A stretch of DNA of 64,000 nucleotides from the human T2T-CHM13v2.0 reference genome, Homo sapiens: the NCBI GenBank assembly GCA_009914755.4, contig CP086569.2:51296001-51360000 (forward strand), given 5' to 3'. The notes below the pieces were generated by a model. That model searched no databases. It was not told the origin of the DNA and saw only the letters and a list, made by a program, of their open reading frames with translations. Below, piece by piece: positions 47,359 to 47,649 of the stretch. Position 1 is the first letter of the stretch. Every line of letters starts with the position of its first letter. Made by a program: the position numbers and the translations under genes.

Positions 47359-47369
47359 GGATAAATATT
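47359..47369. repeat. Left target-site duplication of the young Alu (ggataaatatt)
   Basis: Units without the insertion read acacaggataaatattatatac continuously; here the 11-mer appears on both sides of the Alu. Confidence 0.8.
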
Positions 47370-47638
47370 GGGAGGCCGAGGCGGGCGGATCACGAGGTCA
47401 GGAGATCGAGACCATCCTGGCTAACACGGTGAAACCCCGTCTCTACTAAAAATACAAAAAAAAAATTAGCCGGGCGTGGTAGCGGGCGCCTGTAGTCCCA
47501 GCTACTCGGGAGGCTGAGGCAGGAGAATGGCGTGAACCCGGGAGGCGGAGCTTGCAGTGAGCCGAGATCGCGCCACTGCACTCCAGCCTGGGCGACAGAG
47601 CGAGACTCCGTCTCAAAAAAAAAAAAAAAAAAAAAAAA
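47370..47638 (+). mobile_element. Young 5'-truncated AluY-lineage retrotransposon insertion (body 47370-47614, pure poly-A tail 47615-47638, 24 A)
   Basis: Reads gggaggccgaggcgggcggatcacgaggtcaggagatcgagaccatcc..ccgtctc + A24. This matches an AluY/Sc-type consensus from about position 41 to the 3' end with only ~3 mismatches, and the CpGs are intact. It is present in only one of 26 paralogous units, so the other units act as empty sites. It is flanked by 11-bp direct repeats. Confidence 0.93.
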
Positions 47639-47649
47639 GGATAAATATT
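47639..47649. repeat. Right target-site duplication of the young Alu (ggataaatatt)
   Basis: It immediately follows the A24 tail. It may be 12 bp if the preceding A is counted. Confidence 0.8.

What the first reader, a model, noticed from the sequence alone, without database searches (positions are those of the whole stretch)
47359..47649. Young AluY-lineage insertion with target-site duplications inside one array unit; postdates array expansion
A 5'-truncated Alu (starting near consensus position 41), with only ~3 mismatches, intact CpGs and a pure 24-A tail, sits in the AT domain of U19. It is flanked by the 11-bp duplication ggataaatatt. The 25 paralogous units provide built-in empty-site controls, since they read acacaggataaatattatatac without interruption. 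Such a long perfect poly-A and such low divergence imply a recent insertion, possibly lineage-specific or polymorphic. It also serves as a unique anchor inside an otherwise unmappable array.
Basis: seen in the sequence. Interest (0 to 1): 0.5.

Follow-up and report, generated by a model that had tools for sequence, protein, structure and literature searches.

The report
Young Alu insertion in DYZ2 satellite
One unit of a human 2.4-kb DYZ2/HSat1B satellite array carries a recent, 5'-truncated AluY (Yc1-type) retrotransposon copy with textbook insertion hallmarks; this is real but ordinary, and the same kind of event in this satellite has already been published.

Summary
The window is a tandem array of 26 units of 2413-2422 bp with the three-part anatomy of human DYZ2/HSat1B.

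- **The insertion.** Exactly one unit is interrupted at 47370-47638 (+) by a 269-bp Alu.
- **Match to consensus.** It aligns to AluY consensus positions 39/41-282 with one substitution, G148A, which is the AluYc1 diagnostic. It also has 4 extra A in the middle linker. All 21 CpGs are intact.
- **Hallmarks.** It ends in a pure A24 tail and is flanked by a perfect 11-bp (possibly 12-bp) duplication, GGATAAATATT.
- **Empty sites.** All 25 other units in the window, and 12 independent human DYZ2 fragments found as contaminants in bacterial assemblies, have the uninterrupted site.
- **Mechanism.** This is L1-mediated target-primed reverse transcription. The cleavage site is off-consensus (5'-TCCT/GT-3') and there is 2-nt microhomology at the truncated 5' end.
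The 'T' and 'C' sites it called diagnostic are simply the AluY consensus state, so there is 1 mismatch, not about 3.
- **Untested claims.** Whether the copy is a unique anchor, and whether it postdates array expansion, hold only inside this window. Hallast et al. 2023 describe two AluY insertions in the AT-rich part of Yq12 DYZ2 units, since amplified to 1-17 copies.

Interest is low.

The parts
1..64000 (.). Host: tandem array of 26 DYZ2/HSat1B-type units (2413-2422 bp) plus partial units at both ends
   Evidence: The anchor 11-mer recurs at spacings of 2413-2422 bp. Each unit has about 1.4 kb of >85% AT sequence, a roughly 283-bp Alu-derived subunit at about 77% identity on the - strand, and a GC-richer block of about 600 bp. 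The 2413 and 2420 length classes match the published Yq12 DYZ2 units.
47359..47369 (+). 5' copy of the target-site duplication GGATAAATATT; it may include the A at 47358, giving 12 bp
   Evidence: Every other unit has a single copy of this 11-mer.
47370..47614 (+). Alu body, consensus positions 41-281 (39-281 if the TT at 47368-47369 comes from the Alu). It is 5'-truncated, so the Pol III A box is missing and the B box is kept.
   Evidence: Alignment to the AluY consensus shows 1 substitution, 1 indel and 21/21 CpG. BLAST confirms it. The A box lies at consensus position 13 and the B box at 75.
47456..47465 (+). Middle A-rich linker expanded to 10 A (6 in the consensus)
47481..47481 (+). G148A, the single substitution against AluY and the AluYc1 diagnostic position
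   Evidence: One search gives the alignment. Konkel 2015 (PMC4607524) gives the definition.
47615..47638 (+). Pure poly(A) tail of 24 A (23 if the TSD is 12 bp)
47639..47649 (+). 3' copy of the target-site duplication GGATAAATATT
47742..48023 (-). Resident ancient Alu subunit of the same DYZ2 unit, which forms a tail-to-tail inverted pair with the new Alu
   Evidence: BLAST gives 76.6% identity to AluY positions 13-279. The inverted arms are 79-82% complementary. The single-strand fold has z = -19.

Best explanation
An AluY-lineage RNA carrying the Yc1 diagnostic G148A was inserted by the LINE-1 machinery into the AT-rich domain of one unit of a human DYZ2/HSat1B satellite array. The array is most likely on Yq12; an acrocentric short arm is not excluded.

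The steps are inferred from the anatomy.

1. L1 endonuclease nicked the bottom strand at 5'-AATATTTATCCT/GTGTCA-3'. This site is off-consensus but runs pyrimidine to purine.
2. The freed 3' end primed reverse transcription on the Alu poly(A).
3. cDNA synthesis or its resolution stopped near Alu position 39-41. The 5' end was joined using a TT microhomology.
4. A staggered second-strand break 11-12 bp away was filled in and produced the duplication.

The copy has no private substitutions and all its CpGs. It is therefore young, roughly under 5 million years at 95%, and compatible with the published figure of at least 180 thousand years for such insertions.

It lacks the Pol III A box, so it cannot act as a source element. 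Any further copies of this exact element would arise by DNA-level duplication of its host unit, through unequal sister-chromatid exchange. It has no evident function. It is a neutral marker.
For: **Shown**
- A perfect 11-bp direct repeat brackets an element that ends in A24.
- There are 25 uninterrupted paralogous sites in the window. Twelve independent external DYZ2 fragments, 90.6-99.9% identical to window units (ten of them at 98.5% or above), also have the empty site.
- The element matches the AluY consensus at 243 of 244 aligned positions, apart from a 4-A linker expansion, with 21/21 CpG.
- G148A equals Yc1.
- It is the only young Alu in 64 kb.
- Its features fall inside the ranges measured for 322 polymorphic human Alus: TSD 7-22 bp, A-tails 13-62 and mostly pure, and 14% 5'-truncated, with start positions of 26-50 the commonest class.

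**Host identity**
- The unit lengths 2413 and 2420 and the three-part composition match published DYZ2.

**Precedent**
- Two AluY insertions are described in the AT-rich part of DYZ2 units, with TSD, A-tail and endonuclease site, at 3% divergence or less.

**Inferred**
- The order of the TPRT steps, the age bound and the lack of source activity.
Against: - The cleavage site (top strand AC/AGGA, bottom strand TCCT/GT) matches the canonical 5'-TTTT/AA-3' at only 2 of 6 positions. Canonical TTAAAA/TTTTAA sites are themselves rare in this unit, at one each.
- A formal Dfam/RepeatMasker subfamily call could not be run. Consensus positions 1-38 are absent, so any diagnostic positions there are unknown.
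- The filled junction was not found in any other public sample I could search. Presence in other individuals is therefore unverified.
- Read-level support for the assembly at this spot cannot be checked.
Confidence: 0.93

Rival explanations
1. The insertion is real but not single-copy. It would be one member of an Alu-bearing DYZ2 unit variant that was duplicated after insertion elsewhere in the same array or chromosome. It would then predate part of the array's expansion and would not be a unique anchor.
For: Hallast et al. report that Alu insertions in DYZ2 units show post-insertion expansion. One AluY ranges from 1 to 17 copies among seven Y chromosomes. [quoted passage not shown] The window covers only 26 units of an array family with thousands of units.
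Against: None of the 25 neighbouring units carries it. No unit in the window is a recent duplicate of the host unit; the nearest flanks differ by 18-28 positions per 1.2 kb. One published copy-number state is 1.
Confidence: 0.35
2. The feature is an assembly artefact, or a somatic or cell-line-specific insertion, and not a germline feature of the array.
For: Satellite arrays are hard to assemble. I could not inspect reads. The junction was absent from all other collections searched.
Against: A chimeric join would not produce a perfect TSD, a precise poly(A)/TSD boundary and an otherwise in-register unit (2416 bp after removing the Alu and one TSD). The collections searched contain very little human DNA, so absence there means little.
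Confidence: 0.03
3. The Alu sequence arrived by a route other than TPRT: gene conversion or recombination with another Alu, or endonuclease-independent capture at a double-strand break.
For: The cleavage site is off-consensus. A resident Alu subunit lies about 100 bp away in the same unit.
Against: Endonuclease-independent insertions typically lack TSDs and tails (established knowledge). This element has both. The resident Alu is on the opposite strand and only about 77% identical, so it cannot be the donor or a conversion template for a copy with one mismatch and one 4-A gap (98% by BLAST). The insertion site itself has no Alu homology beyond TT.
Confidence: 0.02

Closest known systems
The AluY insertions 'A1/A2' in Yq12 DYZ2 repeat units (Hallast et al. 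2023, bioRxiv 10.1101/2022.12.01.518658; reused as markers in Logsdon et al., PMC11451754)
   Same: An AluY-class element with 3% divergence or less, sitting in the AT-rich simple-repeat part of a DYZ2 unit. It has a TSD and an A-tail and is far younger than the resident DYZ2 Alu.
   Different: Identity with either published insertion could not be established, because Table S28 (TSDs and positions) is not held. The published elements are amplified to as many as 17 copies. Only one copy is visible in this window.
Polymorphic human AluY/AluYc1 insertions (Konkel et al. 2015, PMC4607524; Roy-Engel 2001; Garber 2005)
   Same: A single G148A difference from AluY, a perfect TSD, a pure A-tail of about 24, and 5' truncation in the 26-50 class.
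   Different: The target is a heterochromatic satellite unit rather than unique euchromatin. The endonuclease site is off-consensus. The middle linker is expanded by 4 A.
The resident 'ancient AluY subunit' of HSat1B/DYZ2 (Rhie et al. 2023, bioRxiv 10.1101/2022.12.01.518724)
   Same: It is also an Alu-derived sequence inside the DYZ2 unit.
   Different: The resident copy is part of the repeat unit itself. It is present in all 26 units, on the opposite strand, at about 76-77% identity to AluY. The new element is a secondary insertion in one unit, with a single mismatch and a 4-A gap (98% by BLAST).

Membership tests
Alu SINE, AluY lineage (AluYc1 sensu Roy-Engel 2001) | Sequence match to the AluY consensus across both monomers, including the Y-state positions in the right monomer | tested here: met
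   243 of 244 aligned positions are identical over consensus 39-282, apart from a 4-A linker expansion. The consensus was taken from PMC8097388 and cross-checked with PMC3514201.
Alu SINE, AluY lineage (AluYc1 sensu Roy-Engel 2001) | G-to-A at consensus position 148 as the sole diagnostic change | tested here: met
   The only substitution is G148A. The definition is quoted in Konkel 2015.
Alu SINE, AluY lineage (AluYc1 sensu Roy-Engel 2001) | Formal assignment against the full Dfam/RepeatMasker subfamily library, including AluYm1 and the RepeatMasker AluYc | not testable with these tools
   No Dfam library is available. Konkel 2015 notes that the RepeatMasker AluYc1 consensus differs from Roy-Engel's Yc1. 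Positions 1-38 are missing from the element.
L1-mediated target-primed reverse transcription insertion | A perfect target-site duplication of about 7-22 bp flanking the element, single-copy at empty sites | tested here: met
   The TSD is 11 bp (possibly 12). There are 25 in-window and 12 external empty sites.
L1-mediated target-primed reverse transcription insertion | A 3' poly(A) tail abutting the downstream TSD | tested here: met
   A pure A24 tail at 47615-47638.
L1-mediated target-primed reverse transcription insertion | An L1 endonuclease consensus nick site, 5'-TTTT/AA-3', on the primed strand | tested here: inconclusive
   The bottom strand reads 5'-TCCT/GT-3' under the 12-bp TSD model. 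The pyrimidine run followed by a purine is kept, but only 2 of 6 bases match.
DYZ2 / HSat1B satellite (host array) | A tandem unit of about 2.4 kb with dominant length classes of 2413 and 2420 bp | tested here: met
   Units are 2413-2422 bp; 7 of the 25 complete units measured are exactly 2413 and 4 are 2420.
DYZ2 / HSat1B satellite (host array) | Three-part unit: an AT-rich region of >85% AT and about 1.4 kb, an Alu subunit about 20% diverged, and a GC-richer block | tested here: met
   The resident Alus are at 76-77% identity and about 283 bp.
DYZ2 / HSat1B satellite (host array) | Human origin and chromosomal location (Yq12 or an acrocentric short arm) | not testable with these tools
   No human reference is available. 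Indirect support for human origin comes from 12 contaminant fragments in bacterial assemblies, 90.6-99.9% identical to window units (ten at 98.5% or above). This is the contamination pattern reported for HSat1B. The chromosome is not resolved.
Published Yq12 Alu insertions (Hallast 2023) | The same insertion point and TSD as an entry in their Table S28 | not testable with these tools
   The table is not held. The TSD string is absent from the supplement text that is held.

The most novel reading that the evidence does not exclude
This could be a DYZ2 Alu insertion that has not been catalogued. It might be a further lineage-specific event on a particular Y haplogroup, or one on an acrocentric HSat1B array. 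Its tail-to-tail inverted pairing with the resident Alu has arms of about 245 bp at about 80% complementarity, separated by a spacer of about 100 nt. That would make this one unit a local hairpin-prone site, which could bias breakage, unequal exchange or inversion within the array.
Probability: 0.1. Interest if true: 0.35.

Novelty: already known. Interest (0 to 1): 0.15.

Why it matters
Its main use is as a marker. A single-origin insertion inside an otherwise near-identical satellite gives a phase and lineage tag. With it, duplication, deletion and gene conversion of DYZ2 units can be followed across Y chromosomes. The Hallast 2023 and Logsdon 2024/25 studies already use such Alus in exactly this way. 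It also shows that L1/Alu retrotransposition reaches constitutive heterochromatin. It opens no new question.

Tried and rejected
- **Rfam scan.** A scan of the window at gathering thresholds gave no hits, as expected because Alu is not an Rfam family.
- **5' junction in public contigs.** The filled 5' junction (25-mer) was searched in metagenome contigs and viral contigs, with 0 hits.
- **3' junction in public contigs.** The filled 3' junction (29-mer) was searched in metagenome contigs, with 0 hits.
- **Junction-spanning ORFs.** Two ORFs that span the junctions were looked up in the assembly gene index (Logan, ENA, JGI), and neither is on record. These negatives say little, because those collections hold little human DNA.
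- **Degenerate pattern in bacterial genomes.** A pattern matching both filled and empty sites returned 12 loci, all empty.
- **Table S28 of Hallast et al.** I tried to obtain it, but the Nature and PMC versions are not held and the TSD string is not in the held supplement. The Logsdon supplement has no Alu detail.
- **Printed Yc1 consensus.** A search of papers for the string gcgtggtagcgggcgcc found nothing.
- **AluYm1.** What distinguishes RepeatMasker's AluYm1 from AluY was not resolved.
- **My remembered consensus.** I rejected my own recollection of an AluY consensus reading CCCGGCTAAAACGG, in favour of the consensus printed in two papers.
- **Sc/Y-intermediate idea.** I rejected it for the same reason.

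Full report
**1. What is there**

The 64-kb window is AT-rich (about 76% A+T) and consists of one tandem array.

- The 11-mer GGATAAATATT occurs 27 times on the + strand, against 0.5 expected.
- It occurs once per unit at spacings of 2413-2422 bp. One additional copy lies 280 bp after the copy at 47359.
- Phased on that site there are 25 complete units plus partial ends, which gives 26 sites.
- Read on the + strand from the site, each unit has four parts:
  - about 100 bp of AT-rich sequence;
  - a minus-strand Alu-derived subunit of about 283 bp, matching consensus 13-280 at only 76-77% identity;
  - a GC-richer block of about 600 bp;
  - about 1.4 kb of sequence at 7-18% GC.

**2. Host identity**

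This anatomy is the published one for human DYZ2/HSat1B.

- Hallast et al. describe a unit of about 2.4 kb in which the commonest length is exactly 2,413 bp and the consensus is 2,420 bp.
- In the window, 7 of the 25 complete units are 2413 bp and 4 are 2420 bp.
- A degenerate-pattern scan of bacterial and archaeal genome assemblies returned 12 loci. Ten are 98.5-99.9% identical to units in this window, one is 97.9% and one is 90.6%.
- That is the human HSat1B contamination of microbial assemblies documented by Rhie et al.. It argues for human origin.
- I cannot tell Yq12 from an acrocentric HSat1B array. The unit lengths favour Yq12.

**3. The insertion**

Between the two closely spaced 11-mers lie 269 bp.

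- Against the AluY consensus printed in PMC8097388, they align from consensus position 39/41 to 282. The diagnostic stretch of that consensus is corroborated by PMC3514201.
- There is one substitution, G148A at window position 47481.
- There is one indel: 10 A instead of 6 in the middle linker, at 47456-47465.
- All 21 consensus CpGs are retained.
- The element ends in 24 uninterrupted A (47615-47638), directly followed by the second GGATAAATATT.
- The base before the first copy is also A. The duplication may therefore be 12 bp and the tail 23 A.
- The last two bases of the upstream copy (TT) match Alu positions 39-40. This is a 2-nt microhomology at the truncated 5' junction.
- A BLAST of AluY against the whole window shows this is the only young copy. 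The other 26 hits are the resident subunits on the opposite strand.

**4. Empty-site controls**

- All 25 other sites in the window are uninterrupted.
- All 12 external DYZ2 fragments are also empty.
- The flanking repeat is therefore a true target-site duplication and not a pre-existing repeat.

**5. Subfamily**

It is the AluY consensus state.
- The only difference is G148A.
- Konkel et al. [quoted passage not shown] (2001) and others (Garber et al. 2005)'. They also note that RepeatMasker's AluYc1 consensus is defined differently.
- The element therefore matches AluY/Yc1 exactly over the part it retains. RepeatMasker would probably call it AluY or a close Y subfamily. I could not run Dfam.

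**6. Mechanism**

The combination of TSD, poly(A) tail and empty sites is the signature of L1-mediated target-primed reverse transcription.

- With the Alu on the + strand, the primed strand is the bottom strand. It reads 5'-AATATTTATCCT/GTGTCA-3' under the 12-bp model.
- That is TCCT/GT against the canonical TTTT/AA. The pyrimidine run followed by a purine is kept, but the site is off-consensus.
- Canonical TTAAAA/TTTTAA hexamers are themselves rare in this unit, at one each. The AT-rich domain is mostly alternating TA-type sequence.
- The element's features sit inside the ranges for 322 sequenced polymorphic human Alus:
  - TSD of 7-22 bp, 93% of them perfect;
  - A-tails of 13-62, mean about 29 and mostly pure;
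  - 14% 5'-truncated, with start positions of 26-50 the largest class.
- Truncation removes the Pol III A box at consensus position 13 and keeps the B box at 75.
- The first TTTT downstream lies 94 bp beyond the tail.
- From these two points I infer that the copy is not a competent source element. Further copies of it can arise only by DNA duplication of its host unit.

**7. Age (inference)**

- There are no private substitutions in about 245 bp that include 21 CpGs.
- With textbook rates (about 0.8e-9 per site per year, and about 10-fold higher at CpG; my own knowledge), about 5.8e-7 changes per year are expected. This gives a 95% upper bound near 5 million years and a median bound near 1 million years.
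- The ±1.2-kb host flanks carry about 18 variants private to this unit. The nearest paralogues still differ at 28 positions on the left and 18 on the right.
- No unit in the window is a recent duplicate of the host. The Alu looks younger than the divergence of its host unit from its neighbours. On its own that contrast is weak (P about 0.16 without CpG weighting).

**8. What is already known**

- Hallast et al. 2023 screened seven complete Yq12 assemblies, including T2T-Y, and found four Alu insertions. Three were in DYZ2 units.
[quoted passage not shown] Divergence was 3% or less, with TSDs, A-tails and endonuclease sites.
- Both insertions predate the Y haplogroup radiation (at least 180 thousand years ago). 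One is absent from T2T-Y, probably through deletion or conversion.
- Copy number ranges from 1 to 17 through unit duplication.
- The present element fits the published description of those AluY insertions. I could not access their Table S28 to confirm identity.
- Either way the kind of event is documented.

**9. External genotyping attempts**

- The filled junctions were absent from metagenome contigs, viral contigs and the gene index of public assemblies.
- Those collections contain little human DNA, and an Alu-bearing unit is one to a few among thousands of DYZ2 units. The result is uninformative.

**10. Verdict**

The subfamily is AluY/Yc1 rather than an Sc/Y intermediate. There is 1 mismatch rather than about 3. 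Uniqueness is untested beyond the window. The finding is an ordinary, already described class of event, useful as a marker and low in interest.

Noticed in passing
window 47370-48023: The new + strand Alu and the resident - strand Alu subunit of the same unit form a tail-to-tail inverted pair. The arms are 79-82% complementary with a spacer of about 100 nt. As single-stranded DNA the 656-nt stretch folds at -195 kcal/mol (z = -19 against shuffles). This is the only one of the 26 units with such a long imperfect palindrome. At about 20% arm divergence it is probably stable (my own knowledge of inverted-Alu studies), but this was not tested.
   Followed up: partly
L001-L012 (for example L005 5897-6920 = NZ_HF570958.1, Nostocoides japonicum T1-X7): Twelve bacterial genome assemblies contain human DYZ2/HSat1B fragments, 90.6-99.9% identical to window units (ten at 98.5% or above). 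In L005, a 1,024-bp piece sits between runs of N inside a 5.16-Mb scaffold whose neighbouring sequence is about 75% GC. This is human contamination scaffolded into a bacterial genome.
   Followed up: partly
window 13532-25596 and 37690-40108: The array is heterogeneous. Five consecutive units are exactly 2413 bp long, and three of them (15945-23183) differ from one another at only 5-12 positions, which suggests a recent local duplication. The unit at 37690-40108 is an outlier, with 83 differences from the window consensus, 57 of them private.
   Followed up: partly
window 47456-47465: The middle A-rich linker of the young Alu has 10 A instead of the 6 in the consensus. This could be inherited from its source element or be a later slippage event. 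If inherited, it could help to identify the source locus.
   Followed up: no
window, one unit (44939-47358): The DYZ2 unit is more than 75% A+T, yet it holds only one TTAAAA and one TTTTAA, the canonical L1 endonuclease targets. Its AT-rich domain is mostly alternating TA-type sequence. This may partly explain why retrotransposon insertions are so rare in this satellite.
   Followed up: no
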